Source: Candidatus Parcubacteria bacterium | GTDB taxonomy: Bacteria > Patescibacteriota > Minisyncoccia > UBA6257 > JAPLYJ01 | Direction: 5' to 3' | Assembly (NCBI GenBank): GCA_026395655.1 | Contig: JAPLYJ010000064.1 | Span: 1 to 34,259 of the forward strand | Length of the DNA stretch: 34,259 bases | Shown here: positions 21,612-33,342 of the stretch, one piece after another | Layout of the letters: every line of letters starts with the position of its first letter | How positions within the stretch are numbered: position 1 is the first letter of the stretch | Notes under the pieces: model-generated | What the model was told of the DNA's origin: nothing | The model's database searches: none | The model's input: the letters and a program-made list of their open reading frames with translations, nothing else | Made by a program: the position numbers and the translations under genes

Positions 21612-22646
21612 TTATTTAAAGATTTGTTTAGCTGGGAACATCAATAAATCGTTGATATCATTAATGTTTAATATTAACATTTGTAATCTATCTACGCCTA
21701 GAGCTATCCCACCAGAATCAGGCATTTTTGATTTTAAAGCATTAATGAAGTCATTGTCAATGGGAATGATTTTTTTGTTTAACTTTTCTCTGACATCTTG
21801 TTCTTCTTTGAAACGTTTGTATTGTTCTTTGTAGTCTGTTAATTCTGAAAAAGCATTAGCTAATTCCATACCACCAATATATGCTTCAAACCTTTCAGCG
21901 TAAAAGCTTTTTTTATTTTTTCTTTTAGCTAAAGAAGCTTGGTGCAGGGGATATTCATATATGATCATAGGTCTATCTTTAGGTAACCTAGGCTCTATAG
22001 CATTTAAAAATACCTTGTAAAAAACATCATCCCAATTGTCTTGGATATCTATTGTAAAATCTTTTTGGATAGCTAATTTTTTAAAATTTTTCAAATTCTT
22101 ACATTGATCTAAATCTAAATGAGCGTATTTTTTAAAAGCTTGTTTGACAGTCATCTTAGGCCAAGGCAAGCTTAAATCAATTTTGTTATTTTCGTATACA
22201 AGATATTTAGATTTATTGATTTTTTTGTTAACTTCAAAAACCAATTGTTCTAGATCTAACATTATTTGATAATAGTTTGAATGACTACGATACCATTCTA
22301 ACATGGTAAATTCTGGATTATGATTTGGTCCAAAGCTTTCATCTGATCTAAAAACTCTAGCTAGCTCAAATACCTTATCAAACCCAGCACAAAGCATTTT
22401 TTTTAAAGAATATTCCGGGGAAGTGATTAAGTACCCTAAATACGATTTACCTTTTTCATCATAAAATTCAGTTTGAAAAGGATTTAAATATGGTTCTTGC
22501 CCAGCACATTCAACCAGAATTGGAGTTTGAGCTTCTAAGAACCCTCTCACCTTAAAAAACGATCTAATGTAATCATTAATCTCAGCTCTCTTTTTTTGCA
22601 CAGAGGTAAGCTTAGGATCTTTTTTAATTTTTTCCCAATTTTGCAT
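21612..22646 (-). CDS. epmA: EF-P beta-lysine ligase (EpmA/GenX/PoxA), class II LysRS paralogue without an anticodon-binding domain
   Basis: FLEAQTPIL, ITSPEYSLKKML, VFELARVFRSDE, NPEFTMLEWY, ANAFSEL, GIALGVDRL. 344 aa. Adjacent to efp. Confidence 0.85.
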   Translation of the reverse strand: MQNWEKIKKDPKLTSVQKKRAEINDYIRSFFKVRGFLEAQTPILVECAGQEPYLNPFQTEFYDEKGKSYLGYLITSPEYSLKKMLCAGFDKVFELARVFRSDESFGPNHNPEFTMLEWYRSHSNYYQIMLDLEQLVFEVNKKINKSKYLVYENNKIDLSLPWPKMTVKQAFKKYAHLDLDQCKNLKNFKKLAIQKDFTIDIQDNWDDVFYKVFLNAIEPRLPKDRPMIIYEYPLHQASLAKRKNKKSFYAERFEAYIGGMELANAFSELTDYKEQYKRFKEEQDVREKLNKKIIPIDNDFINALKSKMPDSGGIALGVDRLQMLILNINDINDLLMFPAKQIFK

Positions 22647-22825
22647 GTTAGATGTTTAATTGTTAAACATTGTAGCATTTTTTTGTATGTTTTGTCATTC
22701 TTTCTGCCATTGACAAAAATGGTATAACTTGTTAAGGTATTTAATAAAAAGTACATTGAAAATATATTTTCCCTCATAAACCCTGAATTCGCAATAAAAT
22801 GTGACAGGTAGAGGCAGGAGGAAAG

Positions 22826-23461
22826 ATGTACCAATATTGTGATAAGTTAGCGCCGGCAGGGAGGTATCCTTGCCTTTACCTTGCCAAGGGTGGCGAGGTA
22901 AAAAAATTTAAAGGAGAAAATATTTCAGATTTTTGCTGTATTGCTACAGAGCAGTACAGCAAAAATGGTAAGTGGTCTAGCACCACTTACCAACTGGAGC
23001 TCTCTCCAGGTGTACGCCCTCTCTATTTTCTCTCCCCGATGCATGGGACATGGGGAGATGACCTCAAATCATGGGGGGAAGTAGTTGAGAAACTCAGTCT
23101 TCCGGTTGATGTCGCAAAAGCGATAATTGGGACTGAGTTCAAGACGACTGCAAATCGCCTCGACAAACTTGAAGAGTTTGCCTTGGCGACCGAGACCGAA
23201 GAAGTCACGACGGAAACTGTCATTATCTCCTTTGGATCGCCCTCTAACCGGGCGATTAGAGAAGGGTATTGGGAGGAACCCAAATCCTCACAGACGAGTA
23301 ACGGTCAAACCGTTACTGTAGCACCGGGCGTGGATGCCGATTGGGGTAATCCTTCGGTTGTGGAACCGGAAGGTGCGAAAGTTATCTCCTCCCGGCACGT
23401 TCCAGGGATGCACGGCGGATATTGGACAGTAGAAGTGATTGTTCCAATCCTCGCCGCGTAA
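22826..23461 (+). CDS. Hypothetical protein (211 aa) in a second G+C-richer, SD-bearing stand-alone cassette
   Basis: Strong SD gcAGGAGGaaagATG. Composition differs from the flanks. Followed by a strong terminator. No motif recognised. Confidence 0.6.
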   Translation: MYQYCDKLAPAGRYPCLYLAKGGEVKKFKGENISDFCCIATEQYSKNGKWSSTTYQLELSPGVRPLYFLSPMHGTWGDDLKSWGEVVEKLSLPVDVAKAIIGTEFKTTANRLDKLEEFALATETEEVTTETVIISFGSPSNRAIREGYWEEPKSSQTSNGQTVTVAPGVDADWGNPSVVEPEGAKVISSRHVPGMHGGYWTVEVIVPILAA

Positions 23462-23480
23462 TCGCGTAGTAACAACAATC

Positions 23481-23523
23481 GAGCCCCAGTGGTTAAACAT
23501 CTACCACATGGGGCTCTTTTTTT
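23481..23523 (+). terminator. Rho-independent terminator
   Basis: GAGCCCCAGTGG ...11-nt loop... CCAC(a)TGGGGCTC followed by TTTTTTT. Confidence 0.85.
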
Positions 23524-23657
23524 AACTATAGTTTTTGAATAATATATTTTTAAAAAATATTTTTGATATTTAAACAAAAATTTGAACTTTTTAATTATTG
23601 TTTTTTGTGTTAAATTATTATTAATGGAAAAACCAAAAATAACTATAAAATAAAAAC

Positions 23658-25385
23658 ATGGACGGGAAAAAGATTATATCAGGGATGCCATCAATGTCTC
23701 CAAAAACACCAGAGGCAATGGAGCAACCAAAAGAAATTGAAAAAAAGTTTTTAATTGAAACCTTGCCTGATAATTTAGAAGATTATCCTTCTGAAGAAAT
23801 TATGCAAGGATATATTGCTATTACCGACGATGGTACGGAAGTTCGTTTACGCAAAAAAGGTGATATGTATTTTCAAACAATTAAAAGTGGGAATGGAAAA
23901 ACAAGAACAGAATCTGAAATTGAGATAACAGAAGAACAATTTAATATACTTTGGAAAACAACGGTTGGTAAAAGATTAGAAAAAAAGAGATATAAAATTC
24001 CTCATGCAAATGGAGTGATTGAATTAGATATCTATGGCGAAGGCTTAGAAGGTCTTGTAACAGCTGAAATAGAGTTTCCATCCGAAGAGGAAAGTGATGC
24101 GTTTGTTGTCCCAACTTGGTTTGGCGAAGAAGTAACAGAAGACAAAAGATATAAAAATCAAAAATTAGTATCTAGTGGTATGCCTGAAGAAGAGAATTTA
24201 GAAATATTAGATATCCCTGAATATAATTTAGAAGATGGCATAGAAAAAATAGTATCTCTTATTAATGAAAAATTATCCTCACAAACAGGTCCTGTTTTGA
24301 TTGAAATTGCAGGGGGTTCGGCTTCTGGCAAAACAAGCGCTGTCTCTCGGAAAATAAAAGAAATTTTTGGTGATGAAGCAATTATTTTTTCAATGGATGA
24401 TTACTATCGCGGAAAAACATTTATGAACAGCGAAGCAGAAAAAGGGAATAATCTAAATTGGGATCAACCAGAAGCTCTTAATTTAGAACTATTGCAAGAA
24501 CATTTAAAAAATTTAAAAAGCGGAGAGCAAATTGAAAAACCAGTATATGATATGAAAACTAGCGAACCCATAGATACAGAGATAATTCAACCTAACAGAG
24601 TTATTATCGTAGAAGGTCTATTCGCCCTTAATGATATCATCTCAGGAGAGGGTGATATTAAAGTATTTGTTGATATTGGTACGCATGGAAGGATTTTAAG
24701 AAGACTTTTGCGTGATATAGAGAGAACGGGTCAAAAGCCTGCTGATATTTTAAGGTATTTTGCTGAGGTAGTAGAGCCAATGCATGAAAAGTATATTCAA
24801 AACACGAAAAAGAACGCTAACATCATTGTAGATAATGAATATAGTCCAAAAGTAGAAGCTCAAAAGTCTGGCTTACATGAAATTCAATTAAAATTTAAAA
24901 TTGAATTAGATGCAGAAACTTTACGCAAGCTTGGCGCAGAAAGATTAAGTTCAACTACTCAAGTTGATTATTATTACAATCCTAAGGACAGAAATTTGAT
25001 TGAAACGAATGAGATTTTAAGAATTCGCCAAGAAGGGGATCACAAAATCTTAACTTATAAAGGTCCGAGGATGGAATCGGAATATAGGAAAAGACCAAAA
25101 TTTGAATTTGAAATTGATGAAGAAACAAATGAAAAATTCTTATCAATTTATGGTGACCAGATAAAAGAGATTAGAAAAGAAAGAATTTTATATGAATTAG
25201 AGGGAATAATATTTTCCATAGATTCAGTCATGAAAATAGAAGATGGGAAAGAAATAGATTTAGGCAAATTTATTGAGATTAGATCTACTAATAAAGAAAT
25301 AAATGATGAAAAAATAAAAGATGTAATATCAAAGCTTGGTCTGTCTTTACCGGATGGTATCAAAGAGTCGTATTTTGAAATGTAA
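23658..25385 (+). CDS. Triple-domain protein: CYTH (triphosphate tunnel metalloenzyme), uridine-kinase/PRK-family P-loop kinase, then a second CYTH (CyaB-like)
   Basis: CYTH1: EIEKKFL (ExExK), EVRLRKKG, ESEIEI, RYKI, ELDIY, AEIEF. Kinase: IAGGSASGKTS, SMDDYYRG, NWDQPEALN, VIIVEGLFAL, RRLLRDI. CYTH2: HEIQLKFKI, ILRIRQEG, LTYKGP, FEFEI. Confidence 0.8.
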   Translation: MDGKKIISGMPSMSPKTPEAMEQPKEIEKKFLIETLPDNLEDYPSEEIMQGYIAITDDGTEVRLRKKGDMYFQTIKSGNGKTRTESEIEITEEQFNILWKTTVGKRLEKKRYKIPHANGVIELDIYGEGLEGLVTAEIEFPSEEESDAFVVPTWFGEEVTEDKRYKNQKLVSSGMPEEENLEILDIPEYNLEDGIEKIVSLINEKLSSQTGPVLIEIAGGSASGKTSAVSRKIKEIFGDEAIIFSMDDYYRGKTFMNSEAEKGNNLNWDQPEALNLELLQEHLKNLKSGEQIEKPVYDMKTSEPIDTEIIQPNRVIIVEGLFALNDIISGEGDIKVFVDIGTHGRILRRLLRDIERTGQKPADILRYFAEVVEPMHEKYIQNTKKNANIIVDNEYSPKVEAQKSGLHEIQLKFKIELDAETLRKLGAERLSSTTQVDYYYNPKDRNLIETNEILRIRQEGDHKILTYKGPRMESEYRKRPKFEFEIDEETNEKFLSIYGDQIKEIRKERILYELEGIIFSIDSVMKIEDGKEIDLGKFIEIRSTNKEINDEKIKDVISKLGLSLPDGIKESYFEM

Positions 25386-25410
25386 TTTATTAATTAAAAA
25401 AACAAAAAAA

Positions 25411-26271
25411 ATGAATCAAAACAATTTTGTATCTGGAATGCCTCAGATGCCTCAAGAAAGCAAAGAGAGCGAACCAAAAATTGCGAAATTATCAGTTAAT
25501 GATTTTGCTGAAAAAATTGGGATTCAGCCCGATCAGCAAGGTCGTGTTACTTTTGCTCCAGAGCATGATAGGTTAGCATATGAATACGCTGAGAAATTTG
25601 CTCGCGACAATAAAGCAGAAAGAGTTATTATAGATGGTATTGCTTCTCCTGGAGTGATAGCTAGTTTTTTACATGGTATGCACCCAGCAGAAGGTTATTT
25701 AACCTATATGTCAAAAGACGCAGAAGGTAAAATGACAAAAGGTGAGACTAAAGTTTTAGAACCATTACCTCAAGGCGAAGGACAAGGACCAGAAGGTTTT
25801 ACATGGGTAAAAAAAGAAACCGAGGATTATACCTTAGTGGAATTTAATCTTGCTGGAGATTTTAAGATAGAAGATTTAGATAAAGTTATTCCTCCTGATG
25901 TTAATCCTGCAAAACCAGTGTTAATTTCCGGTCGTGGTCCTCTTTATCTAACTCATACAATTGCTGCTGGGTACAGGCATTATAAAGGCATTCCAGGGGT
26001 TGGTTTTTATCAGCCAGCAAGTAAATTCGGACCAGCTAAAACTGAAGTTGGTGTTTCTCACAATGAAGAGTTACCTTTAGGATTGAATTTTGGTGAACCA
26101 TCTGAAATTGGCACAGCTAAAGAGTTACATGAAAAACGAATTAAAGAGGGATTATCTGAAATAAAAAAGGGTAAAATTGTTTCTGTAGAAACAAATGATA
26201 AAATCATAAAATTTACTTTAGATAGCGGTGAAACATACAGTTTATCTGTTCGCGAGGTAACAAAAGAATAA
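25411..26271 (+). CDS. Csx3-like protein (possible tandem/pseudo-dimeric Csx3 fold), 286 aa
   Basis: YTLVEFNL...KPVLISGRGPLYLTHTIAAGYRH...VGFYQP...VGVSHNEE is collinear with my recollection of A. fulgidus Csx3 (FTLIHFEI...GVVISGRGPIWLHCFLAHKYHH...VAVYDPRLG...VVQSHSE). An upstream segment RVIIDGIASPGVIASFLHGMHP looks like a degenerate second copy. The ATG at 25411 is preferred over the alternative start at 25336. Confidence 0.55.
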   Translation: MNQNNFVSGMPQMPQESKESEPKIAKLSVNDFAEKIGIQPDQQGRVTFAPEHDRLAYEYAEKFARDNKAERVIIDGIASPGVIASFLHGMHPAEGYLTYMSKDAEGKMTKGETKVLEPLPQGEGQGPEGFTWVKKETEDYTLVEFNLAGDFKIEDLDKVIPPDVNPAKPVLISGRGPLYLTHTIAAGYRHYKGIPGVGFYQPASKFGPAKTEVGVSHNEELPLGLNFGEPSEIGTAKELHEKRIKEGLSEIKKGKIVSVETNDKIIKFTLDSGETYSLSVREVTKE

Positions 26272-26357
26272 TCTCAAAAATATAGAAGATTCTAATTCAA
26301 TACGACAAGGATATTAAAATATAATTAATAAGAGATAATTGATAATGAGTTAATACT

Positions 26358-29300
26358 ATGTCAGAACAAATTAATCTTTCAAAAGGGAAAGAAAAAAAGG
26401 AAACCATCTTAATACCTGAGCAACAAGTTATTAAAAATTATATTAATGAAGTTCTTGTAGCTGATAATAAATTAGATCTACCAGTAGTAATAATTTCTAG
26501 TCCCGAAGCCCAAGAAATAGTGAAGCAAAAGCTCATTACGTGTTTTAAAAACAATAATATTAATGATGCTATTAAAATTAATGATACATTTAAGCTACCA
26601 AAGGAAATAATCCAAGAAGCAGTTAAACAAGGAATTATTTATCATTTGAGAGGCCATTATATTTATAATGCTTTTGAAATTAGTAATGCATTTAATTTGC
26701 CACCAAAAATAGTCCAAGAAGTAACCAAACAAGCGCTCATTAACTATTTTGAATATGGATATATTGAGTCTGCTATCGAAATTACTGAGATATTTAATTT
26801 ACCTGATGAAATAATTTTTAGTCTTGAAGTGCAACAGGCAGCAGCACAACCATTTATTAGTAAATTTAAATATGGTTCTCTTGACGATGCTATTAAAATT
26901 AATGATACATTTAAGCTACCAAAGGAAATAATTCAAGAAACAGCTAAACAAGCGTTTATTGTATGGTTTTGCAACCATCGTATTGATGATGTTATTTATG
27001 ATATTAGCATAGCCCAATATGCATTTAATTTACCCAAAACAATAGCCCAAGATGCACCTAAACAAGGATATATTGAATGCCTTAAGAGTGGTTTAATTGA
27101 CGCTGCTATAGAAATCAAAGATATATGCAAATTATCTTTATCTAAAGAGATAATTTCTGATCCAGAAGTACAAAAAGGAATTGAAGAAGGATTTATTAAT
27201 TATCTTCATAATAATCAAATTGATATTGCTATTAAAATTAAAGATGAATTTAATCTACCAGACGAAATAGTCCAAAAAGCAGTAGAACAAGTAGTTATTA
27301 AACATTTGCGTGAGCATCAAGTTAATATTGCCATTAAAATCAAAGACAAGTTTAATTTATACATATCTCCACAAAAAATAATTGATCAGATCCCTAAGCT
27401 AGTTGATATCATTGAACAAATATCTCAATTGGCACCACCATTTAAGATGCAAACGGAGAAATCTAGCGAGTTGGTAATTGGATTGTGTCGTTTTATTAAT
27501 AAGCCAGATTATTTAATAAATCTATTAAAAGAAAAACTCTATTTGATTGATGCCATAATGAGTAACCCTCGTTTTGGTTCAAGACTTCTTTTGAAATATC
27601 CTGAATTTGACGAAATGTCTAAAGAAAATATAGAAAAACTTTTTTTAACTAAACAAAAAATATTAGAGCAAAATCCTGATATAGATCCGGAATCATTAGA
27701 ATTTCGTCAATTAATGCAGGAGGAATTAAAAACATTCAAAAACAATCCCGAAATAATGGAAGAAATCGAAAAGCAAGGAATTAATTTAGAAGAATGGCTT
27801 AATCATTCTGAAACTAGTTATTTTAACCTTTCTTCTAAGGGTAGCGAGATTAGTTTTTCAGAGAAAATCAGAACGCCAATAGATAGAATTAAAGAAACTA
27901 TTGATAGCTATGCCCATACCATTAAATCAGTTTTAAAAGAATATATACTAGAATTAAAAAAACATGAGATAGCTTTAGAAAATGATGAATCTGTTAAAGA
28001 GCAGATTACAAAAATGGAGGGTGCTTTAGAACAAGCCCAAGCAGAAGGCAATGATACAAAAATTAAAGGAATAGAAAGAGGTCTATTGACTCAAAGAGAA
28101 AGATTAAATAATCCTAAAAAGGGTATTCTTTGGGACAAACTCATGGGTGATATTGAAGCTTTCCAAGGTCTTAAAAATGATTGTTTTGATGCTCAAAAGA
28201 AATTAATAGAAGCAGAGGACAAATTAACAGGAGCTCTTGCAGGTAAAGCACCTTCTGGCAAAGGTGTTTTAGAGATAAAACAAAAAATTGCTCAAGCTAA
28301 AGAAGAATTAAGAAATAAGTTTAATGTTTTAGAAAGAAGAATTGAAAATTTTAAAATTAATTTACCCAAACTTTTATCACCGTGCCTTGGGCAAGAAAGA
28401 AGTGAAGCCTTGATTCAGGAAATAGACCAGGCAGTAGCTGAGCAATTTTATCATTTTGAATTAGATAGAACTGTTTTAGCAAATATGTTTTCTGAAAGAA
28501 ACGACAAGGAAACAGAGCAATTAGAGTCCAGACCAATGAGTATTTTTGTTTGGGCGAGAAATCCTGACATTGATCTTTATCAAGGTGATTATTCACCCTG
28601 TTGCATTTGCATAGATAGTTATGATGCTACAGAATCAACAATAGCAGATTATAATACAGATCTTGGCATTCAAATCGTTAATATTTGGGATGAAGCAAAA
28701 AACGAACCAGTTACTGCTGCCTGGTGTTGGTTGGGTCAAAACGAAAATGGAGAAAAGGCATTAGTGATAGATAACATTGAATCCAATGTACTTTTTAGTA
28801 CTAATTTTTCAGAACAATTATCTAAAGAATTATTAGATTATATTATAAATTACGCTAAAAAAATTGGAGTTGATAAAGTAATTCTAGGAGTAGACTATAG
28901 TGACCTACCTAGTGCTTCTAAGTTATTAGAATTAAAATGGGATAATAATGAATATGAAAAAATTGGTGGAAGCAATAGAGAATATGGGTATTATTTAGAG
29001 TCGGAAGGAGATATTATCAAGCTTATTTGGGACAGGAAAGAAGACGAAACAATAAAACAACCAAAAGAAGCAAGAAAACAAAAAGAAACTATTAAATTTG
29101 AAAACATATCTGTTACTAATTTGACTGAAGAAAATTTTGATGAGATTAGACAATTAGAAGCTAAAATTTATCAAGATACTGGATTAGCCCAAGGTTCAGG
29201 ATTAATAGAAAATATAAAATCTGATAATGGCTTAGAATACTCATTAATAATTAGAGGTAAACAACCAGATCAAGAAGAAAAAATTATTGGATATATCGTA

Positions 29301-29621
29301 GCCGTAGATGACGAAACCGATGAAGGTGATCCCTGCATATATTTAGAAGATATTGCAGTGTTAGATGAAGCCCAGGGTCAAGGATTGGGTTGGGAGATGC
29401 TTAAAGAATTAGTTAATAAGTTAAAAATTAAAGCACAAAAAAACAAAAAACCAATATTGCTAGATATGCATTTAAGAAAAAATTCCCAGGGATTATTACA
29501 AAAACACAAAGAAGATTTAGAAGAGATGGGGGTAAGATTAACAGAAGAAGCATTAGAACCTAATTATTATGATACAAATGAAGATGCGTTGTATCAGATT
29601 TATCAAATTCAAATAGATTAA
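26358..29621 (+). CDS. Large multidomain protein (1087 aa): N-terminal array of about 34-aa helical repeats, a coiled-coil-like middle, a Cys/Trp-rich domain and a C-terminal GNAT N-acetyltransferase
   Basis: Repeats F(N/K)LPxEIxQxAxKQxxIxxL...I(D/N)xAIxIxD x about 8. GNAT motif A IYLEDIAVLDEAQGQGLGWEMLKELV at roughly aa 995-1020. Confidence 0.8.
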   Translation: MSEQINLSKGKEKKETILIPEQQVIKNYINEVLVADNKLDLPVVIISSPEAQEIVKQKLITCFKNNNINDAIKINDTFKLPKEIIQEAVKQGIIYHLRGHYIYNAFEISNAFNLPPKIVQEVTKQALINYFEYGYIESAIEITEIFNLPDEIIFSLEVQQAAAQPFISKFKYGSLDDAIKINDTFKLPKEIIQETAKQAFIVWFCNHRIDDVIYDISIAQYAFNLPKTIAQDAPKQGYIECLKSGLIDAAIEIKDICKLSLSKEIISDPEVQKGIEEGFINYLHNNQIDIAIKIKDEFNLPDEIVQKAVEQVVIKHLREHQVNIAIKIKDKFNLYISPQKIIDQIPKLVDIIEQISQLAPPFKMQTEKSSELVIGLCRFINKPDYLINLLKEKLYLIDAIMSNPRFGSRLLLKYPEFDEMSKENIEKLFLTKQKILEQNPDIDPESLEFRQLMQEELKTFKNNPEIMEEIEKQGINLEEWLNHSETSYFNLSSKGSEISFSEKIRTPIDRIKETIDSYAHTIKSVLKEYILELKKHEIALENDESVKEQITKMEGALEQAQAEGNDTKIKGIERGLLTQRERLNNPKKGILWDKLMGDIEAFQGLKNDCFDAQKKLIEAEDKLTGALAGKAPSGKGVLEIKQKIAQAKEELRNKFNVLERRIENFKINLPKLLSPCLGQERSEALIQEIDQAVAEQFYHFELDRTVLANMFSERNDKETEQLESRPMSIFVWARNPDIDLYQGDYSPCCICIDSYDATESTIADYNTDLGIQIVNIWDEAKNEPVTAAWCWLGQNENGEKALVIDNIESNVLFSTNFSEQLSKELLDYIINYAKKIGVDKVILGVDYSDLPSASKLLELKWDNNEYEKIGGSNREYGYYLESEGDIIKLIWDRKEDETIKQPKEARKQKETIKFENISVTNLTEENFDEIRQLEAKIYQDTGLAQGSGLIENIKSDNGLEYSLIIRGKQPDQEEKIIGYIVAVDDETDEGDPCIYLEDIAVLDEAQGQGLGWEMLKELVNKLKIKAQKNKKPILLDMHLRKNSQGLLQKHKEDLEEMGVRLTEEALEPNYYDTNEDALYQIYQIQID
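26466..27390 (+). repeat. Intragenic array of about 8 degenerate 34-codon repeats. Two segments 321 nt apart are nearly identical at the DNA level.
   Basis: gatgctattaaaattaatgatacatttaagctaccaaaggaaataat is identical at 26565-26611 and 26886-26932 (both encode DAIKINDTFKLPKEII). Confidence 0.85.
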
Positions 29622-29637
29622 GATGTTTTACCACCTA

Positions 29638-29666
29638 TTGACAAATCTTTAAGAATATGCATAATA
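29638..29666 (+). promoter_or_regulatory. Consensus sigma70-type promoter P1, 17 nt after the stop of the 1087-aa gene
   Basis: TTGACA (29638-29643), 17 nt, ATAATA (29661-29666). Confidence 0.6.
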
Positions 29667-29671
29667 ACAAA

Positions 29672-29976
29672 TAGAACATTGAGATTAGTTTTTTAAAAAT
29701 GCTTTGGATGATTGCTGACTGTTATTTAGCTACTTAGAGATAGGTGATTAAATAACAGCCAGCAACATCGGCTGACACCTCGCCCTAGGTGGAAAGGCAC
29801 CCCTAGGAACGAAAGGAGACGCCTCCGTATGGTTCCATACCCTGCAGGTGTTCCCCCTTAGCATTTTTTTAAGGCGACGACACCGCCTTATTCATCCCCG
29901 CCCAGTCTGGTGTCGAGACTAGGGCTTATAGAAAAAAATTTGGTAAGTCTCAGCCGAAATATGACTGAGACTTACC
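29672..29976 (+). ncRNA. Candidate structured RNA A1 (about 300 nt), unknown class
   Basis: No long ORF. Contains a 17-bp AT-rich hairpin (29712-29765), a CCTAGG hairpin, a 10-codon mini-ORF (29829-29861), an AAGGCG/CGCCTT hairpin (29871-29889), a hairpin with a GGUGUCG loop (29901-29924) and a terminal 12-bp hairpin (29942-29976). Confidence 0.45.
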
Positions 29977-29981
29977 ACCAT

Positions 29982-30010
29982 TTGACAAATTCTGATAGAT
30001 ATGCTATACT
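29982..30010 (+). promoter_or_regulatory. Consensus sigma70-type promoter P2
   Basis: TTGACA (29982-29987), 17 nt, TATACT (30005-30010). Confidence 0.6.
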
Positions 30011-30015
30011 AAGTG

Positions 30016-30206
30016 AGTAATTGAATAGAGTTAGGTTTTTAAGCTAGTTTGTCCCCAAAGCTTCCAGAACTTTACAATTTAAAAAGTATACATTAAGGAG
30101 AGGCCGCCCGAGCTGGGGCGGTAATACAAATCAGCTAAAACGGCTAAGCGAAGTATCTTTAGGTTAATTTTTAATCTTCTCCGGATATTTCGCTTAGCCG
30201 TTTTTT
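30016..30206 (+). ncRNA. Candidate small RNA B (about 190 nt) ending in a long intrinsic terminator
   Basis: No ORF after its AAGGAGAGG motif. Contains a CCGCCC gagct GGGCGG hairpin. The terminator CGGCTAAGCGAA...TTCGCTTAGCCG (30141-30200, extendable to about 18 bp) is followed by TTTTTT. Confidence 0.45.
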
Positions 30207-30752
30207 AAACGGTTAACAGCACCTTAACATATTGTTCAAAATCATCTGCCATTCACTTTTTAAGGAGAGAGTGGCTACCTTAATAGGTAGTAACAGGAGA
30301 GAGTCCAAGGAGAGAGAATGGATTATAGATAATTTTGAATGAAGCCCAAACCAAATTAGCGAGTTAGAGAATTAAATTAAAAGGGCAAAAATATTTAATT
30401 CTTCAAATACCAAATATTGGTTAAAAAATAAACTCGCTGCTCCTAATTTAGCGGTAAAACTGCGGTTAGGACTGCTGCAATTAAGATTAACCCCCTTAAT
30501 TGGTCAGCAGGCCTTAGATTTGCTTGATACAAATTAAGAAAATTTAAGGCCTGCTAATTCTCAGCAGGAGAAAGGTGGTGGTGCCGATGATCGCATCGGG
30601 CATCCCGCCGTAACAAATCAAGGACGGCACCGTCCTCTCTATCCGAGAAGGGTTGACACATCAGTCTTGGTGCCGAGATTGATGGAAAAACGGTTTATGG
30701 GGTAAGTTTACCGAGACTTCGAGAGAAATAAACTCTCGGCTAAACTTACCCC
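30207..30752 (+). ncRNA. Hairpin-dense non-coding stretch including RNA A2, the 3'-module paralogue of A1
   Basis: Three AGGAGAGAG copies (30263-30316). A multibranch unit closed by GCGAGTT/AACTCGC. A perfect 10-bp GCAGGCCTTA/TAAGGCCTGC stem. A mini-ORF at 30587-30613. An AGGACG/CGTCCT hairpin (30621-30636). A GGUGCCG-loop hairpin (30659-30684). A terminal hairpin at 30699-30752. Confidence 0.4.
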
Positions 30753-30843
30753 CTCACATTCAGATTATAAATTAAAAATAATTTGTAATTTGAAACATGA
30801 GGATAGAGTTCTTTTAAAAATAAAAAATCGCTTCTAGCTATTT

Positions 30844-30892
30844 CTGGCTGCTGTTTAGGTATTTAATATTTAGATATTTGAATAGCAGTCAG
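30844..30892 (+). promoter_or_regulatory. Conserved 14-bp leader hairpin (copy 1)
   Basis: CTGGCTGCTGTTTA ...21 nt... TGAATAGCAGTCAG with three G-U pairs. The paralogue at 31800-31848 differs only on the 3' arm, and pairing is kept. Confidence 0.6.
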
Positions 30893-30947
30893 AACGACCC
30901 TCAGAAGTCCTGACCGTAGTATAGCAGGCCGAGGAAGAAGGAGAAAC

Positions 30948-31217
30948 ATGCAATGCACGAAGGAGTGGAAAACCCAGGATGTTATTACACGCGGGGAACG
31001 CGTAACCTGGTGGGAGGCAAACCACTACCGGGTAATTGTCCCGGTATTCGAAAGTAGCAATGAGGAATTTGAGTTTCTCATTGCCCACAAGCTAGAACAT
31101 GCGGACCAGTACGGTGATTCTTCCGGAGATTCTTCCTTCTCAGATTTCTTTTGGGACAGGATAGAGAGCTTAGCAGAGACACTCGGGGTGCCTGCCCCGC
31201 AAAGGTCGTCTCGCTAA
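30948..31217 (+). CDS. Possible small protein (89 aa) in module copy 1. Coding status uncertain because the segment is hairpin-rich.
   Basis: SD gaAGGAGaaacATG. Protein-like sequence with a GDSSGDSS tandem repeat. It also contains perfect inverted repeats (31026-31046, 31057-31084, 31184-31199). Confidence 0.35.
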   Translation: MQCTKEWKTQDVITRGERVTWWEANHYRVIVPVFESSNEEFEFLIAHKLEHADQYGDSSGDSSFSDFFWDRIESLAETLGVPAPQRSSR

Positions 31218-31268
31218 GTCTACGGAATAATAGTTGGAGAGGTGTCCCGAATCCTCTAAAAAATCGGG

Positions 31269-31294
31269 GGCAGAGCGATGCCGATCGCTCTGCC
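31269..31294 (+). promoter_or_regulatory. Conserved GC-rich hairpin downstream of the module ORF (copy 1)
   Basis: GGCAGAGCGAT gccg ATCGCTCTGCC. The paralogue at 32112-32135 (AGCAGAGCGA tgcg TCGTTCTGCT) carries a G-C to A-T compensatory pair. Confidence 0.6.
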
Positions 31295-31327
31295 AAATGG
31301 CCCTTCGGGGTTTATTCGGGAGGTTCT

Positions 31328-31363
31328 GGAAAGTTTCCTCGGTAAAAACTTTCCAATCTTTTT
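31328..31363 (+). terminator. Rho-independent terminator (module copy 1, first unit)
   Basis: GGAAAGTTT cctcggtaa AAACTTTCC then AATCTTTTT. Confidence 0.7.
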
Positions 31364-31441
31364 CAGCTCATAAACAAAATTTGTGGTCTGAAAGAGGAGA
31401 AATATTAGTTCTTTACAATTTTTAATATTTCCTTATTCTAA

Positions 31442-31496
31442 TTTTGTGTTGCTAATTTAGTAATTTATTTTAGATTATTAAATCGGCAACACAAAA
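31442..31496 (+). promoter_or_regulatory. Conserved leader hairpin immediately upstream of the SD of the small TM ORF (copy 1)
   Basis: TTTTGTGTTGC ...33 nt... GCAACACAAAA. Paralogue at 32267-32321. Confidence 0.6.
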
Positions 31497-31517
31497 AAGA
31501 AAGGAGAAAAGAGAAAA

Positions 31518-31667
31518 ATGAGTCCAGAAGATACGGGACCTTTTTGGGGCCCACTGGTTATCTACGGTCCCTTGTTGTTGGGGCTCGCAATTGTAGCGGT
31601 TATATCCCGTTACAATGAATGGAAAAAGGAGATCACTAATCTCCTAGAAAGGAGAAAAAGAAAATAA
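31518..31667 (+). CDS. Small membrane peptide (49 aa): one TM helix plus a basic tail
   Basis: SD aAAGGAGaaaagagaaaaATG. Sequence MSPEDTGPFWGPLVIYGPLLLGLAIVAVISRYNEWKKEITNLLERRKRK. Below the ORF-track size cut-off. Confidence 0.5.
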   Translation: MSPEDTGPFWGPLVIYGPLLLGLAIVAVISRYNEWKKEITNLLERRKRK

Positions 31668-31679
31668 GAAAAGGCGGAC

Positions 31680-31716
31680 GGCAGGTTCCGCTAAGGGTTA
31701 TAACCTGCCTCTTTTT
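31680..31716 (+). terminator. Rho-independent terminator (end of module copy 1)
   Basis: GGCAGGTT ...14 nt... AACCTGCC then TCTTTTT. Confidence 0.75.
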
Positions 31717-31799
31717 CAGATTATAAATTAAAAAAAATTTGTAATTTGAAACATGAGGTTAGAGTTCTTTTAAAAATTAAAAAACGCTTCTAGTTATTT

Positions 31800-31848
31800 C
31801 TGGCTGCTGTTTAGATATTTAATATTTAGATATTTAAATAGCGGCCAG
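31800..31848 (+). promoter_or_regulatory. Conserved 14-bp leader hairpin (copy 2)
   Basis: CTGGCTGCTGTTTA ...21 nt... TAAATAGCGGCCAG. Confidence 0.6.
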
Positions 31849-31898
31849 GAATTGGTCGACTAATTCTTACCTAAGAAGGTAAGAGAAAGGAGTATGGG

Positions 31899-32090
31899 AT
31901 GGGGATCCCAGTTGGTTATACAAAACACCTAATACTGTGTTTTGTGGAACAGGCGCAGGATCAGGCGCCTGTCACGGGCACAGGCGACTCCACGTGGTAT
32001 GTGGAGTCGCTATGTAATATCATCCGCCGTTTATTGGCGGATGAGCCAGATGAGCCATTCCTAGCAGTAGTTAATCAAGGGGTGCCCTAA
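31899..32090 (+). CDS. Possible small protein (63 aa). More likely a multi-hairpin RNA, or dual-use.
   Basis: SD aAAGGAGtatgggATG, but 31865-32043 consists of six consecutive perfect hairpins. The start codon sits inside one of them. Confidence 0.25.
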   Translation: MGIPVGYTKHLILCFVEQAQDQAPVTGTGDSTWYVESLCNIIRRLLADEPDEPFLAVVNQGVP

Positions 32091-32111
32091 ATCCTCTTTA
32101 AAAAAAATCGG

Positions 32112-32135
32112 AGCAGAGCGATGCGTCGTTCTGCT
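32112..32135 (+). promoter_or_regulatory. Conserved GC-rich hairpin downstream of the module ORF (copy 2)
   Basis: AGCAGAGCGA tgcg TCGTTCTGCT, homologous to 31269-31294. Confidence 0.55.
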
Positions 32136-32163
32136 AGGTTGTGCCCTGCGGGGTATAGATTCG

Positions 32164-32203
32164 CAGGGAGGCGTGTTGGTTACACGAACTCCCTGTTCTT
32201 TTT
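32164..32203 (+). terminator. Rho-independent terminator (module copy 2, first unit)
   Basis: CAGGGAG ...18 nt with inner GTGT/ACAC... CTCCCTG then TTCTTTTT. Same position as 31328-31363 but a different sequence. Confidence 0.7.
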
Positions 32204-32266
32204 CAGCTCATAAACAGAATTTGTGATCTGAAAGAGGAGAAAGTATTAGTTTTTTTCTTTTTCTAA

Positions 32267-32321
32267 TTTTGTGTTGCTAATTTAGTAATTTACTTTAGAT
32301 TATTAAATCGACAACACAAAA
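32267..32321 (+). promoter_or_regulatory. Conserved leader hairpin upstream of the small TM ORF (copy 2)
   Basis: TTTTGTGTTG ... CAACACAAAA. Confidence 0.55.
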
Positions 32322-32338
32322 AAAGAGGAGGCATTAAA

Positions 32339-32482
32339 ATGACCATCGAACAATTAGCACGGCTCCTACTTTTAGTAGGAGTGATCATGATTGCAGCTTA
32401 GATCATGGCTGCAATCACCTGGAAGAAGTATTCCAGGTGGTGGATCTGGAAGTATAAAATAGAAAGGAGGGAAAAAAGATAA
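32339..32482 (+). pseudogene. Paralogue of the small TM peptide interrupted by an in-frame TAG (32399-32401)
   Basis: SD agAGGAGGcattaaaATG. Sequence MTIEQLARLLLLVGVIMIAA*IMAAITWKKYSRWWIWKYKIERREKR. It shares TM + WKK + ERR(K/E)KR architecture with 31518-31667. The TAG lies in the loop of a perfect 10-bp hairpin, TGATTGCAGC/GCTGCAATCA. Confidence 0.35.
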
Positions 32483-32528
32483 AAAAAGCGGATGGCAGGT
32501 TTCGCTAACGGTTATACCCTACCTCTTT

Positions 32529-32641
32529 TTCAGATTATAAATTAAAAATAATTTGTAGTTTGAAAGAAGGGGATATTAGCTCTTTAAAAAACATTTTTGC
32601 AAGGAATACAATTATATTTTAGATGTAGTTGTATTCCTCGC
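32529..32641 (+). repeat. Third, partial module copy (box retained, different leader hairpin)
   Basis: 32529-32565 matches the box at 30759-30795 and 31715-31751. This is followed by the hairpin GCAAGGAATACAA...TTGTATTCCTCGC (32599-32641). Confidence 0.7.
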
Positions 32642-32689
32642 AAAAAGATAGCCACTAAAAACTATACGTGGCAGAAAGGAGGTAATAAA

Positions 32690-33076
32690 ATGAAAGAATT
32701 GGAAGATGCTTTCAACTTTTTGGATAAAAAAATCCAAGAAGTAAAAGATGAGGAAGAGGCAACAAAAAAACGTGCTGCCATTTTTCCCGAAACTGCCCTG
32801 AAGTTGTTACAAAGGGCAACTAGAGAGACAGTGCATATTCTTCTGCCTCACTCCACAGGCAAAATGTGCCTAATCTTTTCACCTCCCATCGAAAAGATTC
32901 AAAAATGGTGGCTTTGCATATATCATGGAGAGCCATTATCGTTTGTTTTTGACGACGACGGATGGGCCAATAACATGCTCGTCAAAGAATGCCTCCAGGC
33001 GTTTATTGATAGGGCTGTTGAGCCCAAAGTATTTCTGGCTTTTCCCAAAGAGCCAGAAATGTTTCCTCAAGTTTAA
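32690..33076 (+). CDS. Hypothetical protein (128 aa)
   Basis: SD aAAGGAGGtaataaaATG at the internal Met of ORF 32597-33076. Protein-like sequence (MKELEDAFNFLDKKIQEVKDEEE...). No motif recognised. Confidence 0.55.
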   Translation: MKELEDAFNFLDKKIQEVKDEEEATKKRAAIFPETALKLLQRATRETVHILLPHSTGKMCLIFSPPIEKIQKWWLCIYHGEPLSFVFDDDGWANNMLVKECLQAFIDRAVEPKVFLAFPKEPEMFPQV

Positions 33077-33167
33077 CTTTAACGTTAGCTCTTTCTGATG
33101 CGAGGCAGAAAGGAAAAAAATGGGGGAGGGATAAATAACATTCCTCCCCAATTTCTCATAAAAAAAA

Positions 33168-33195
33168 TTGACAGTTAATCTCAGTTTGATAATAT
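33168..33195 (+). promoter_or_regulatory. Consensus sigma70-type promoter for the rod-like RNA
   Basis: TTGACA (33168-33173), 16 nt, TAATAT (33190-33195). Confidence 0.55.
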
Positions 33196-33202
33196 TAAAG
33201 TA

Positions 33203-33323
33203 CAAACAAGAACCGCTTAGAGGCGGACTAAAGTGAAGAAGTGATGTCCATCTTTCGGGGTGGAGGAATCTCTCTCCTTACATCATTAATTCATATTTGG
33301 TCTGCCCTTAAGCGGTTTTTTTT
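33203..33323 (+). ncRNA. Candidate rod-like small RNA (about 115 nt), unknown class
   Basis: Long closing helix AACCGCTTAGAGGCGGAC / GTCTGCCCTTAAGCGGTT. Inner GTGATGT/ACATCAT helix. Apical hairpin with a UUCG loop. Followed by TTTTTTT. No ORF. Confidence 0.45.
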
Positions 33324-33342
33324 ATTTTTTAAAAAATATTTC

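What the first reader, a model, noticed from the sequence alone, without database searches (positions are those of the whole stretch)
23658..29621. Orphan nucleotide/RNA-centred three-gene module: CYTH-kinase-CYTH, Csx3-like and repeat-GNAT giant protein
Three co-directional genes with short spacers and native-like AT-rich composition combine domains typical of nucleotide-signalling, RNA-end-processing or conflict systems.

- Two triphosphate-tunnel (CYTH) domains. This family includes CyaB adenylyl cyclases, RNA triphosphatases and tripolyphosphatases.
- A P-loop uridine-kinase/PRK-type kinase.
- A Csx3-like domain. Csx3 is known as a cyclic tetra-adenylate ring nuclease and RNA deadenylase of type III CRISPR systems.
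- A GNAT. This fold is used by the aminoacyl-tRNA-acetylating toxins TacT/AtaT, among many other roles.

There are no cas genes, CRISPR array, CARF or cyclase (Cas10/CD-NTase) genes in the window.

The module lies between an isolated foreign-looking cassette (22.7-23.5 kb) and the structured-RNA island, near a tRNA-Lys gene. I do not recognise this combination as a described system. Whether it is a defence, RNA-repair or signalling system is inference.
Basis: partly seen in the sequence, partly recalled or inferred. Interest (0 to 1): 0.8.

Follow-up and report, generated by a model that had tools for sequence, protein, structure and literature searches.

The report
Csx3-like gene pair, not triad
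The three genes and their domains are real, but across related candidate-phyla-radiation (CPR) bacteria they are not a conserved trio: the CRISPR-type Csx3-like protein usually sits with an RNA helicase operon that is absent here, only the CYTH-kinase gene recurs beside it, and the giant acetyltransferase is an unrelated neighbour.

Summary
**Observation: confirmed.** Three co-directional, AT-rich ORFs carry the stated domains.
- **g1** (23658-25385): CYTH, uridine-kinase-like domain, CYTH.
- **g2** (most likely 25411-26271): a Csx3 fold in its central ~95 residues.
- **g3** (26358-29621): about 8 helical repeats, a conserved core, and a GNAT.

**Interpretation as one orphan three-gene system: only partly supported.**
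- **g2** defines a small, highly conserved family in Patescibacteria (39 lineages found).
  - Its usual neighbours are an HrpA/Prp22-like DEAH RNA helicase (19 lineages), a P-loop ATPase related to the ATPase of "Csx3-AAA" proteins (15), and a SpoT/MESH1-type HD protein (8). None of these is in this window.
  - g1 lies upstream of g2 in 3 lineages. g3 follows g2 only in this species.
- **g1** (at least 388 relatives) and **g3** (at least 36 full-length relatives) are widespread in Patescibacteria, in unrelated housekeeping contexts.
- Two g2 residues align with what I recall to be the Mn2+ ligands of AfCsx3. In g2 they are invariantly replaced (H60 to R, D69 to Q).
- g3's GNAT resembles protein N-terminal acetyltransferases.
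- No cas gene, CRISPR array or recognised defence partner is present.

**Unexpected:** proteins of the helicase/Csx3-like operon share an N-terminal peptide. In this window g1 and g2 share their own version of it (SGMPxM).

**Best reading:** g1 and g2 belong to CRISPR-independent RNA/nucleotide processing. g3 is a bystander.

The parts
23658..25385 (+). g1: 575-aa CYTH / uridine-kinase-like P-loop kinase / CYTH protein
   Evidence: Pfam PRK 6e-31 and CYTH 3e-22. NCBIfam udk 1e-45, below its equivalog cut-off; cyaB 70 bits against a cut-off of 57.95. At least 388 relatives in Patescibacteria, 54-94% identical among the best 120 listed.
23718..24161 (+). g1 N-terminal CYTH domain (about residues 21-168), catalytic motif intact
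   Evidence: The family profile matches the NeuTTM tripolyphosphatase (2fbl/3typ) at 3e-46. E26-x-E28-x-K30, R63, R65, K76, E137 and E139 are invariant in 18 family members.
24298..24833 (+). g1 uridine-kinase/PRK-type P-loop kinase domain (residues 214-392)
   Evidence: Pfam PRK covers residues 214-392. The P-loop residues 218-226 (AGGSASGKT) are invariant except G220, which is nearly invariant. PDB matches: uridine kinase 3w8r 6e-36, UCK2 6e-32, Arabidopsis TTM1 7z66 9e-40.
24876..25373 (+). g1 C-terminal CYTH domain (about residues 407-572) with a variant motif, E408-x-Q410-x-K412
   Evidence: Pfam CYTH covers residues 407-572. Q410 is invariant where the second glutamate of ExExK is expected. 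PDB matches: Saci_0718 TTM 1e-15 and PH1819 2e-12.
25411..26271 (+). g2: 286-aa two-lobed Csx3-like protein (N-lobe, Csx3 fold, C-terminal helix plus small beta domain)
   Evidence: The family has 70 clusters, 47-97% identical, with 53 invariant columns in a 22-sequence alignment. AF2 model pLDDT 89.5.
25786..26070 (+). g2 Csx3-fold domain (about residues 126-220)
   Evidence: Foldseek matches AfCsx3/Crn3 (6yud, 3wzg): TM 0.75-0.80 normalised to the target, rmsd about 2 A, 31-33% identity. The profile matches AfCsx3 at 1.7e-10, and the SGRGP motif is shared. The aligned positions are AfCsx3 H60 / g2 R189, H61 / H190 and D69 / Q201, all invariant in the family.
23673..23702 (+). g1 N-terminal peptide, residues 6-15 (IISGMPSMSP), shared with g2
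   Evidence: S8-G9-M10-P11-x-M13 sits at identical positions in g1 and g2. The DNA differs at synonymous sites, so this is not recent gene conversion. Most listed g1 relatives outside the Csx3 operon lack the peptide.
25426..25455 (+). g2 N-terminal peptide, residues 6-15 (FVSGMPQMPQ): this lineage's version of the operon-wide tag
   Evidence: It is homologous to 'MNEKNFTPEAQMPQE' in other g2 family members. The motif E[KQ]x0-3[FY]xP occurs in 41 of 83 operon-family N-termini against 5 of 363 other genes in the same loci.
26358..29621 (+). g3: 1087-aa helical-repeat / conserved core / GNAT protein. Adjacent, but not part of a conserved module.
   Evidence: The family has 52 hits, 850-1700 aa, across Patescibacteria. 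Contexts L027 and L028 lack both g1 and g2. g3 lies next to g2 only in the window and L011.
26490..27392 (+). g3 N-terminal array of about 8 repeats of 34-38 aa
   Evidence: Repeat anchors 'F(N/K)LP' occur at residues 78, 112, 146, 185, 223, 257, 298 and 332. The repeat is seen in the protein only; there is no DNA tandem repeat.
29085..29618 (+). g3 C-terminal GNAT domain (about residues 910-1087)
   Evidence: Pfam Acetyltransf_1 1e-9. AF2 pLDDT is about 90 for this part. The best Foldseek matches are Naa10/Naa50/Ard1/RimI, E 1e-8 to 3e-6.

Best explanation
The region is not one three-gene system.

**g1 and g2.** They are a loosely coupled pair from a CRISPR-independent RNA/nucleotide-processing toolkit of Patescibacteria.
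- g2 is a stand-alone, two-lobed Csx3-fold protein. I infer that it binds, and possibly cleaves, oligoadenylate or RNA 3' ends.
- In most relatives g2 is the last gene of an operon with an HrpA/Prp22-like DEAH RNA helicase, a SpoT/MESH1-type HD phosphohydrolase and a P-loop ATPase related to the ATPase of 'Csx3-AAA' proteins. Some variants add a Pol-beta nucleotidyltransferase, a radical-SAM protein, a small GNAT or g1.
- g1 is a plant-TTM1-like enzyme with an extra N-terminal CYTH domain.
  - The N-terminal CYTH is NeuTTM-like and I infer it acts as a triphosphatase.
  - The kinase domain I infer to be a nucleoside kinase.
  - The second CYTH has ExQxK in place of ExExK. I infer that it binds substrate rather than hydrolysing it.
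  - I infer that g1 handles the phosphorylated nucleotide products, which would feed salvage in organisms that I recall lack de novo nucleotide synthesis.
- g1 and g2 share an N-terminal peptide. I infer that it docks them to a common partner.

**g3.** It is an independently conserved giant protein: a helical-repeat scaffold carrying a RimI/Naa-like protein acetyltransferase. It merely lies downstream.

**Shown versus inferred.** The folds, motifs, gene-neighbourhood statistics and the shared peptide are shown. All activities and the salvage logic are inferred.
For: **Domains and folds:**

**Neighbourhoods from 39 g2 lineages**
- Helicase in 19 lineages, P-loop protein in 15, HD protein in 8, g1 in 3, g3 in 1.

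**Identity of the partners**
- Helicase: Prp22-like 2e-108, HrpA 4e-95; NCBIfam HrpA 3e-115.
- HD protein: MESH1, small alarmone hydrolases and RelA/SpoT hydrolase domains.
- P-loop protein: PADLOC 'Csx3-AAA' 7e-7.
- Nucleotidyltransferase and radical-SAM variants.

**g1 and g3 are widespread and occur elsewhere without g2:**

**The families look housekeeping-like**
- High sequence conservation: g2 55% and g1 65% mean column identity.
- Chromosomal housekeeping neighbours in the window.
- No viral copies of g2.
- No PADLOC hit for g1 or g3.

**Shared N-terminal peptide:**
Against: - No activity has been measured for any member.
- The helicase, HD and P-loop partners are absent from this 34-kb contig. 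g2 may therefore work without them here, or they may lie elsewhere in the genome.
- In one of the three g1-g2 lineages (L065), three unrelated small genes separate the pair.
- In 4 of 4 distinct contexts sampled from the g1 side there is no g2 nearby.
- The C-terminal CYTH scores above NCBI's class IV adenylate cyclase cut-off, which fits a signalling reading.
- More distant Csx3 relatives are fused to MazF, HD and AAA domains, as in defence sensors.
- The shared-peptide statistic counts homologous sequences within families, so its p-value overstates independence.
Confidence: 0.45

Rival explanations
1. A CRISPR-independent cyclic-nucleotide or cyclic-oligoadenylate signalling or defence module. 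A CYTH domain of g1 (class IV cyclase-like), or an unseen synthase, makes a signal. g2 senses or degrades it like a ring nuclease. The g3 GNAT is the effector.
For: - The C-terminal CYTH scores 70 bits against TIGR00318 cyaB, cut-off 57.95.
- g2 has a true Csx3 fold.
- The whole g2 model weakly resembles SAVED sensors: probability 0.95-0.97, TM 0.37.
- Distant relatives of the two-lobed unit are fused to MazF, HD and AAA domains.
- Some operon variants carry a Pol-beta nucleotidyltransferase.
Against: - No Cas10, CD-NTase or known effector is present in the window or in the loci of the 39 lineages.
- The AfCsx3 positions I recall to be Mn2+ ligands are replaced (H60 to R, D69 to Q).
- The closest solved relatives of both CYTH domains are ones I recall as tri/pyrophosphatases (NeuTTM, TTM1, Saci_0718), not cyclases.
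- g3 is unlinked elsewhere, and its GNAT looks like a protein N-terminal acetyltransferase.
- The families are strongly conserved and vertically distributed, which is unlike typical defence islands.
- None was found in viral contigs.
Confidence: 0.2
2. Chance juxtaposition: three unrelated conserved Patescibacteria genes that merely happen to be neighbours on one strand in this lineage, with no functional coupling.
For: - The contexts of g1 and g3 differ at every distinct place sampled.
- g2 also occurs next to OTCase, GIY-YIG/NYN genes or an unrelated 979-aa protein.
- Small CPR genomes pack co-directional genes tightly in any case.
Against: - g1 is upstream of g2 in three g2 lineages whose g2 proteins are 97%, 73% and 56% identical to the window's.
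- In L009 g1 is inserted between the helicase and g2, and only that g1 copy carries the operon-type N-terminus.
- In the window g1 and g2 share S8-G9-M10-P11-x-M13, encoded with different synonymous codons.
Confidence: 0.25
3. An RNA-repair or end-healing cassette in the manner of Pnkp/Hen1 or RtcB. Kinase and phosphoesterase domains heal broken RNA ends, and the Csx3-like protein trims 3' ends.
For: - A P-loop kinase combined with phosphohydrolase-type CYTH domains.
- From memory, AfCsx3 was first described as an RNA deadenylase. A crystal structure of AfCsx3 bound to ssRNA (3wzi) is among the Foldseek matches.
- A tRNA gene and a non-coding island lie downstream.
Against: - No ligase (RtcB, Rnl or LigT-type) or Hen1 was found in the window, and none recurs among the conserved neighbours of g2 in the related loci.
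- The kinase is of uridine-kinase/PRK type, not polynucleotide-kinase type.
- The non-coding island is not conserved next to g2 elsewhere.
Confidence: 0.1

Closest known systems
Csx3/Crn3 ring nuclease of type III CRISPR systems (Archaeoglobus fulgidus AF_1864; PDB 3wzg, 3wzi, 6yud, 6vjg)
   Same: The fold of the central ~95 residues is the same: TM 0.75-0.80, rmsd 2 A, 31-33% identity. The SGRGP loop and the Y-x-H and S-H motifs are shared.
   Different: - g2 is 286 aa, with an extra N-terminal lobe and a C-terminal helix plus beta domain.
- It scores below the NCBIfam Crn3/Csx3 cut-off: 27.3 against 55.4 bits.
- The positions aligned to H60 and D69 are invariant R and Q. That these are the Mn2+ ligands is from memory; the papers could not be opened.
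- There is no CRISPR-Cas context in the window or in any of the 39 lineages.
'Csx3-AAA' / 'AAA-Csx3' accessory proteins (PADLOC PDLC01045, PDLC01059)
   Same: The g2 Csx3 part hits AAA-Csx3 at 2.9e-6. The P-loop protein that usually heads the g2 operon hits Csx3-AAA at 7e-7. Distant relatives carry the whole two-lobed unit fused behind an AAA domain.
   Different: Here the ATPase and the Csx3-like parts are separate genes, joined by a DEAH helicase and an HD protein. The ATPase gene is not in this window at all.
Arabidopsis TTM1/TTM2 (uridine-kinase-like domain plus CYTH; PDB 7z66) and the NeuTTM tripolyphosphatase (PDB 2fbl/3typ)
   Same: The kinase plus C-terminal CYTH of g1 align with TTM1 over residues 192-531 at 9e-40. 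The N-terminal CYTH aligns with NeuTTM at 3e-46.
   Different: g1 has CYTH domains on both sides of the kinase. It has ExQxK in the TTM1-like CYTH. It is a family found so far only in Patescibacteria-type assemblies.
Protein N-terminal acetyltransferases (RimI, Ard1/Naa10, Naa50)
   Same: The C-terminal GNAT of g3 gives its best structural matches to these enzymes, E 1e-8 to 3e-6. There is a weak hit to the rimI model.
   Different: g3 is a 1087-aa protein with 8 helical repeats, coiled-coil-like segments and a highly conserved Cys-rich core ('SPCCICID') ahead of the GNAT. It scores far below the rimI cut-off: 23.9 against 86.4 bits.

Membership tests
Csx3/Crn3 (CRISPR ring nuclease) | Csx3 fold and sequence signature | tested here: met
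   Pfam PF09620 scores 24.2 bits against a cut-off of 21. The profile matches AfCsx3 at 1.7e-10. Foldseek TM 0.75-0.80.
Csx3/Crn3 (CRISPR ring nuclease) | Equivalog-level score to the NCBIfam Crn3/Csx3 model | tested here: not met
   TIGR02579 scores 27.3 bits against a cut-off of 55.4.
Csx3/Crn3 (CRISPR ring nuclease) | Metal-binding and catalytic residues of AfCsx3 (H60, D69; identity of these residues recalled from memory, papers not retrievable) | tested here: not met
   The aligned g2 residues are R189 and Q201, invariant in 22 family members. H61/H190 and S79-H80/S216-H217 are kept. The S-H pairing was read by eye.
Csx3/Crn3 (CRISPR ring nuclease) | Genomic association with type III CRISPR-Cas | tested here: not met
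   No cas gene or array is in the window. None is among the recurrent neighbours in 39 lineages.
Csx3/Crn3 (CRISPR ring nuclease) | Cleavage of cyclic tetra-adenylate | not testable with these tools
   Needs biochemistry.
CYTH / triphosphate tunnel metalloenzymes | ExExK motif plus conserved basic and acidic tunnel residues | tested here: met
   N-terminal domain: E26, E28, K30, R63, R65, K76, E137 and E139 are invariant. C-terminal domain: E408-x-Q410-x-K412, so only partly met.
Class IV adenylate cyclase (CyaB) | Score above the TIGR00318 cut-off, and cyclase activity | tested here: inconclusive
   It scores 70 bits against a cut-off of 57.95. However, the nearest solved relatives (Saci_0718, NeuTTM, TTM1) are ones I recall as phosphohydrolases. 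The activity is not testable here.
Uridine kinase (Udk) | P-loop kinase of PRK/Udk type at equivalog level | tested here: inconclusive
   The Pfam PRK criterion is met (108 bits). NF004018 scores 155 against 180 and TIGR00235 scores 150 against 220, both below cut-off. The P-loop is conserved throughout, invariant at 8 of 9 positions.
GNAT toxins TacT/AtaT | Small stand-alone GNAT paired with an antitoxin; tRNA-acetylating fold subgroup | tested here: not met
   The GNAT is the C-terminal domain of a 1087-aa protein. No antitoxin-like neighbour was seen. The top 50 Foldseek matches listed are dominated by protein N-terminal acetyltransferases and include no TacT or AtaT entry. There is no PADLOC hit.
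   The three occur together only in the window and the same-species contig L011. g1+g2 occur in 3 of 39 lineages and g2+g3 in 1 of 39.

The most novel reading that the evidence does not exclude
g1 and g2 are the visible part of an undescribed Csx3-centred, CRISPR-independent system of Patescibacteria. Its components would be a DEAH RNA helicase, a SpoT/MESH1-like HD protein, a P-loop ATPase and a Csx3-like protein, with optional Pol-beta nucleotidyltransferase, radical-SAM, CYTH-kinase or GNAT partners. The different subunits would be marked by a common N-terminal docking or targeting peptide. The system would carry out either tail-and-degrade RNA surveillance or a new oligonucleotide signalling pathway.
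Probability: 0.3. Interest if true: 0.75.

Novelty: new variant of a known kind. Interest (0 to 1): 0.55.

Why it matters
- Csx3 is known, as far as I recall, only as a CRISPR type III accessory ring nuclease and deadenylase.
- Here a strongly conserved, CRISPR-less Csx3-fold family has altered active-site residues. It is tied to an HrpA/Prp22-like helicase and nucleotide phosphohydrolases in reduced-genome symbionts.
- That would extend the Csx3 fold to core RNA/nucleotide metabolism, or to a new signalling route.
- The peptide shared by unrelated proteins of one operon gives a directly testable handle on how such a complex is assembled.
- For annotation, the result warns against reading 'Csx3 + CYTH + GNAT' adjacency as a defence system without checking the neighbourhood in related genomes.

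Tried and rejected
- **Internal duplication in g2.** hhalign of the N-lobe against the Csx3 lobe gave no signal (probability 0.2). A tandem-Csx3 pseudo-dimer is therefore not supported by sequence. Only weak whole-model similarity to SAVED remains.
- **Defence databases.** PADLOC returned nothing for g1, g3 or the GC-rich ORF.
- **Viral origin.** No g2 relative was found in 2.9 million viral contigs.
- **g3 GNAT against the small GNATs near g2 in L009.** No similarity.
- **L002's 979-aa gene downstream of g2.** It is not a g3 homologue.
- **DHH-like motifs in the P-loop protein.** I read them by eye in its N-terminal half ('PDAHG...DHHST'). Neither Pfam nor a PDB profile search confirmed them, so this is left as a lead only.
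- **Link between the module and the downstream non-coding island.** The island has no match in any of 69 loci. The 2.3-kb gap after g2 in L001 is simply a 16S rRNA gene plus a tRNA gene.
- **Literature tools.** They failed at every attempt. Statements about published Csx3 residues, TTM1/2, NeuTTM and CPR metabolism rest on my own memory. I could not check whether this operon has already been described.


Full report
**1. The observation**

- The window carries three + strand ORFs.
  - 23658-25385: g1, 575 aa.
  - 25336-26271: g2. Its homologues begin at the ATG at 25411, giving 286 aa.
  - 26358-29621: g3, 1087 aa.
- With the corrected g2 start, the spacers are 25 nt and 86 nt. The simple scan shows no convincing terminator between the genes.
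- GC is 0.29-0.34 over the three genes, like the rest of the window. The cassette just upstream (windows 22501-23500 and 23001-24000) has GC 0.44 and 0.39.
- tRNA-Lys lies at 33380-33453.
- The rest of the window is ordinary chromosomal content: uvrABC, bipA, a [FeFe]-hydrogenase module, HIT, EF-P and a class II aaRS-like gene.
- No tandem array resembling a CRISPR was found.

**2. Domain checks**

*g1*
- Pfam PRK 6e-31 (residues 214-392); CYTH 3e-22 in two stretches.
- NCBIfam udk 1e-45, below the equivalog cut-off. cyaB 70 bits, above its 57.95 cut-off.
- A profile of 18 family members gives these PDB matches:
  - N-terminal CYTH to the NeuTTM tripolyphosphatase, 3e-46.
  - Kinase plus C-terminal CYTH to Arabidopsis TTM1 (7z66), 9e-40.
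  - Kinase to uridine kinases, 6e-36.
  - C-terminal CYTH to Saci_0718, 1e-15.
- Conserved residues:
  - E26xE28xK30 and the basic tunnel residues of the first CYTH are invariant.
  - The P-loop residues 218-226 (AGGSASGKT) are invariant except G220, which is nearly invariant.
  - The second CYTH carries E408xQ410xK412, with an invariant Q.

*g2*
- Pfam Cas_csx3 24.2 bits against a cut-off of 21. NCBIfam Crn3/Csx3 27.3 against 55.4 bits. PADLOC Csx3 1.7e-9.
- The family profile hits AfCsx3 at 1.7e-10.
- The AF2 model is confident: pLDDT 89.5, pTM 0.83. Its central domain superposes on AfCsx3/Crn3 at TM 0.75-0.80, rmsd about 2 A, 31-33% identity.
- The whole model gives only weak two-lobe matches to SAVED domains.
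- The printed alignment pairs these residues, all invariant in the family:
  - AfCsx3 S44-G-R-G-P48 with g2 S173-P177.
  - Y59 with Y188.
  - H60 with R189.
  - H61 with H190.
  - D69 with Q201.
- From memory, H60 and D69 are the Mn2+ ligands and catalytic residues of AfCsx3. I could not open the papers to confirm this.

*g3*
- Only the GNAT is recognised by Pfam (residues 972-1028, 1e-9).
- There are about 8 protein repeats of 34-38 aa in roughly residues 45-345. They do not form a DNA tandem repeat.
- The family is very strongly conserved over its C-terminal ~700 residues, including an 'SPCCICID' core.
- An AF2 model of residues 690-1087 is confident only for the GNAT. Its best structural matches are Naa10/Naa50/Ard1/RimI protein N-terminal acetyltransferases.

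**3. Is it a module? Comparative genomics**

*g2 family*
- 70 clusters at 90% identity, 47-97% identical to the window's protein. The source names are Falkowbacteria and 'Patescibacteria group'.
- I collected 64 loci carrying a g2 homologue from public assemblies. They collapse to 39 lineages at 95% g2 identity.
- I searched their six-frame ORFs with the window's proteins and with the neighbours seen in L009, L001 and L002, and clustered all neighbours.
- The recurrent partners all lie upstream on the same strand:

| Partner | Lineages |
|---|---|
| 640-aa DEAH helicase | 19 |
| 650-870-aa P-loop protein | 15 |
| 688-aa HD_4 protein | 8 |
| g1 | 3 |
| g3 (downstream) | 1 (this species only) |

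- By my own tally, about 32 lineages have at least ~0.9 kb of upstream sequence.
- No protein family recurs downstream of g2 in more than three lineages.

*Identity of the partners*
- The helicase is HrpA/Prp22/Prp16/DHX8-like: 2e-108 to a Chaetomium splicing helicase and 4e-95 to HrpA. NCBIfam HrpA is 3e-115.
- The HD domain matches MESH1, small alarmone hydrolases and RelA/SpoT hydrolase domains.
- The P-loop protein hits PADLOC 'Csx3-AAA' at 7e-7 and, weakly, MinD/MipZ-type ATPases.
- Operon variants substitute or add:
  - a radical-SAM protein and a polyprenyl-synthase-like protein (L032/L061/L062, L037);
  - a 231-aa Pol-beta nucleotidyltransferase (L033/L035/L047);
  - small GNATs (L009, L047);
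  - g1 (L009).
- None of the helicase, HD or P-loop genes is in this window.

*g1 family*
- At least 388 relatives. The best 120 listed are nearly all near full length (most 560-590 aa) and carry both CYTH and PRK domains.
- Four distinct contexts sampled from the g1 side lack any Csx3-like gene: ATP synthase/metK, trmB, dnaA-dnaN, and SDR/NUDIX/rnpA.

*g3 family*
- 52 hits, of which about 36 cover most of the length.
- Both contexts sampled lack g1 and g2.

*Result*
- The triple exists only here and in L011, a 3.3-kb contig 97% identical in g2.
The g1-g2 pair is not.
- The three g1-g2 lineages have g2 proteins 97%, 73% and 56% identical to the window's. In L009 g1 sits inside the operon, between the helicase and g2. 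In L065 three unrelated small genes intervene.

**4. An unexpected feature: a shared N-terminal peptide**

The different proteins of the Csx3-like operon begin with a similar peptide.

| Protein | N-terminus |
|---|---|
| P-loop protein | MSEKPIEQFxP |
| HD protein | MNNQEKFIPQ |
| Helicase | MMSEKGGEFPPQEQ |
| g2 family | MNEKNFTPEAQMPQE |
| Radical-SAM protein | MNEQEKFQPQ |
| Nucleotidyltransferase | MSDQEKFVPQ |
| g1 copy inside the operon (L009) | MSEEKFIPKAQ |

- Most of the other listed g1 family members do not carry it.
- The pattern E[KQ]x0-3[FY]xP within the first 18 residues occurs in 41 of 83 non-identical operon-family proteins. It occurs in 5 of 363 other genes in the same loci. 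Four of those five are themselves encoded within the operon, and one is GyrA.
- The Fisher p-value is 4e-29. It is inflated by homology within families. The recurrence across five unrelated families is the real point.
- In the window both proteins carry S8-G9-M10-P11-x-M13 at identical positions: g1 is MDGKKIISGMPSMSP and g2 is MNQNNFVSGMPQMPQ.
- The codons differ at synonymous sites. This argues for selection on the peptide rather than recent gene conversion.
- No other gene in the window has this peptide.
- g3-family N-termini ('MPEKFDFSK', 'MSEKFNFSK'; the window has 'MSEQINLSK') look loosely similar. I do not rely on that.

**5. Wider relatives of g2**

- A full HMMER scan of 1.84 billion representative proteins finds only 117 hits at E<=1e-3 and 5 at E<=1e-30.
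- Several distant hits match both lobes of g2 as a C-terminal module behind other domains: AAA, HD, a MazF/PemK toxin, or DUF4116 repeats.
- The two-lobed Csx3 unit is therefore used elsewhere as a fused sensor-like or nuclease-like domain. This keeps the signalling rival alive.

**6. Mechanism**

*Shown*
- The folds and motifs.
- The loss of the two AfCsx3-type positions.
- The operon partners.
- The independence of g3.
- The shared peptide.

*Inferred*
- g2 binds or trims oligo(A) or RNA 3' ends delivered by the DEAH helicase. I recall DEAH helicases to be 3'-to-5' translocases.
- The HD domain and the CYTH domains remove (pyro/tri)phosphates.
- The uridine-kinase-like domain recycles nucleosides. 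From memory, Patescibacteria generally lack de novo nucleotide synthesis, which would make this coherent.
- The optional Pol-beta nucleotidyltransferase suggests a tail-and-degrade logic reminiscent of TRAMP.
- In this genome only g1 and g2 are seen together. The other partners may be elsewhere or absent.
- g3 is best read as a separate, widely conserved protein acetyltransferase on a helical-repeat scaffold.

*Rivals*

| Explanation | Confidence |
|---|---|
| Best explanation (CRISPR-independent RNA/nucleotide processing) | 0.45 |
| Chance adjacency | 0.25 |
| Signalling or defence | 0.2 |
| RNA repair | 0.1 |

**7. Novelty and verdict**

- The domains are known kinds.
- The following appear to be a new variant, and I know of no description of them:
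  - the CRISPR-less, active-site-altered, two-lobed Csx3 family;
  - its helicase/HD/ATPase operon;
  - the common N-terminal peptide.
- I could not confirm that they are undescribed, because the literature tools failed throughout.
- The finding as framed, an orphan three-gene conflict system, is overstated. It does point to something of moderate interest.

Noticed in passing
window 29622-33380: A gene-poor stretch with raised GC (0.35-0.43 against about 0.30) and no credible Rfam match. It contains three direct copies of a unit spaced 814-956 nt apart (104-141-nt blocks 62-91% identical, plus 46-71-nt blocks 94-96% identical). Two near-consensus sigma-70 promoters lie at 29638-29665 and 29982-30010, inside a 33-nt direct repeat. 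It looks like tandem paralogous non-coding RNA or small-ORF genes. No similarity to any of the 69 loci fetched at the time.
   Followed up: partly
L009, L013-L019, L030, L034, L043, L045, L047, L048 and other loci (upstream of the Csx3-like gene): A conserved operon of P-loop ATPase, SpoT/MESH1-like HD protein, HrpA/Prp22-like DEAH helicase and Csx3-like protein. Variants carry radical-SAM, Pol-beta nucleotidyltransferase, GNAT or CYTH-kinase genes. The unrelated proteins share an N-terminal peptide (E[KQ]x0-3[FY]xP): 41 of 83 against 5 of 363 other genes.
   Followed up: partly
window 22826-23461 (+): A GC-rich (0.44) 211-aa ORF directly upstream of g1. It has no significant Pfam hit (best E 0.13), no NCBIfam or PADLOC hit, and its DNA has no match in the related loci. 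A terminator-like hairpin lies inside it at 22855-22874.
   Followed up: partly
window 3493-3566 and 6129-6186: Perfect tandem duplications of 37 nt and 29 nt (2.0 copies, 100% identity). They coincide with a split uvrA (1827-3533 / 3523-4371) and with the region just before the GTG start of bipA (6194). These are possible assembly artefacts or recent frameshifting duplications.
   Followed up: no
window 13547-14398 (+): A 283-aa protein combining an ATP-cone, an Mrr-type restriction-endonuclease catalytic domain and an AF1548-like C-terminal domain. A zincin-like metallopeptidase gene lies at 12399-12770.
   Followed up: no
L023 9291-9928 and L026 9270-9967: In two unrelated g1 contexts, the same arrangement of two small genes (96-100 aa and 116 aa, no Pfam hit) immediately precedes the CYTH-kinase-CYTH gene. 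This is a possible conserved partner pair. It is not present in the window.
   Followed up: no
L001 10930-13201: The 2.3-kb 'gene-free' gap after the Csx3-like gene of the most divergent family member is a 16S rRNA gene plus a tRNA gene on the opposite strand. It is not a counterpart of the window's non-coding island.
   Followed up: yes
P0246, P0271, P0254, P0280 (distant relatives of g2): The two-lobed Csx3 unit occurs fused to a MazF/PemK toxin, an HD domain, an AAA ATPase, or DUF4116 repeats.
   Followed up: partly
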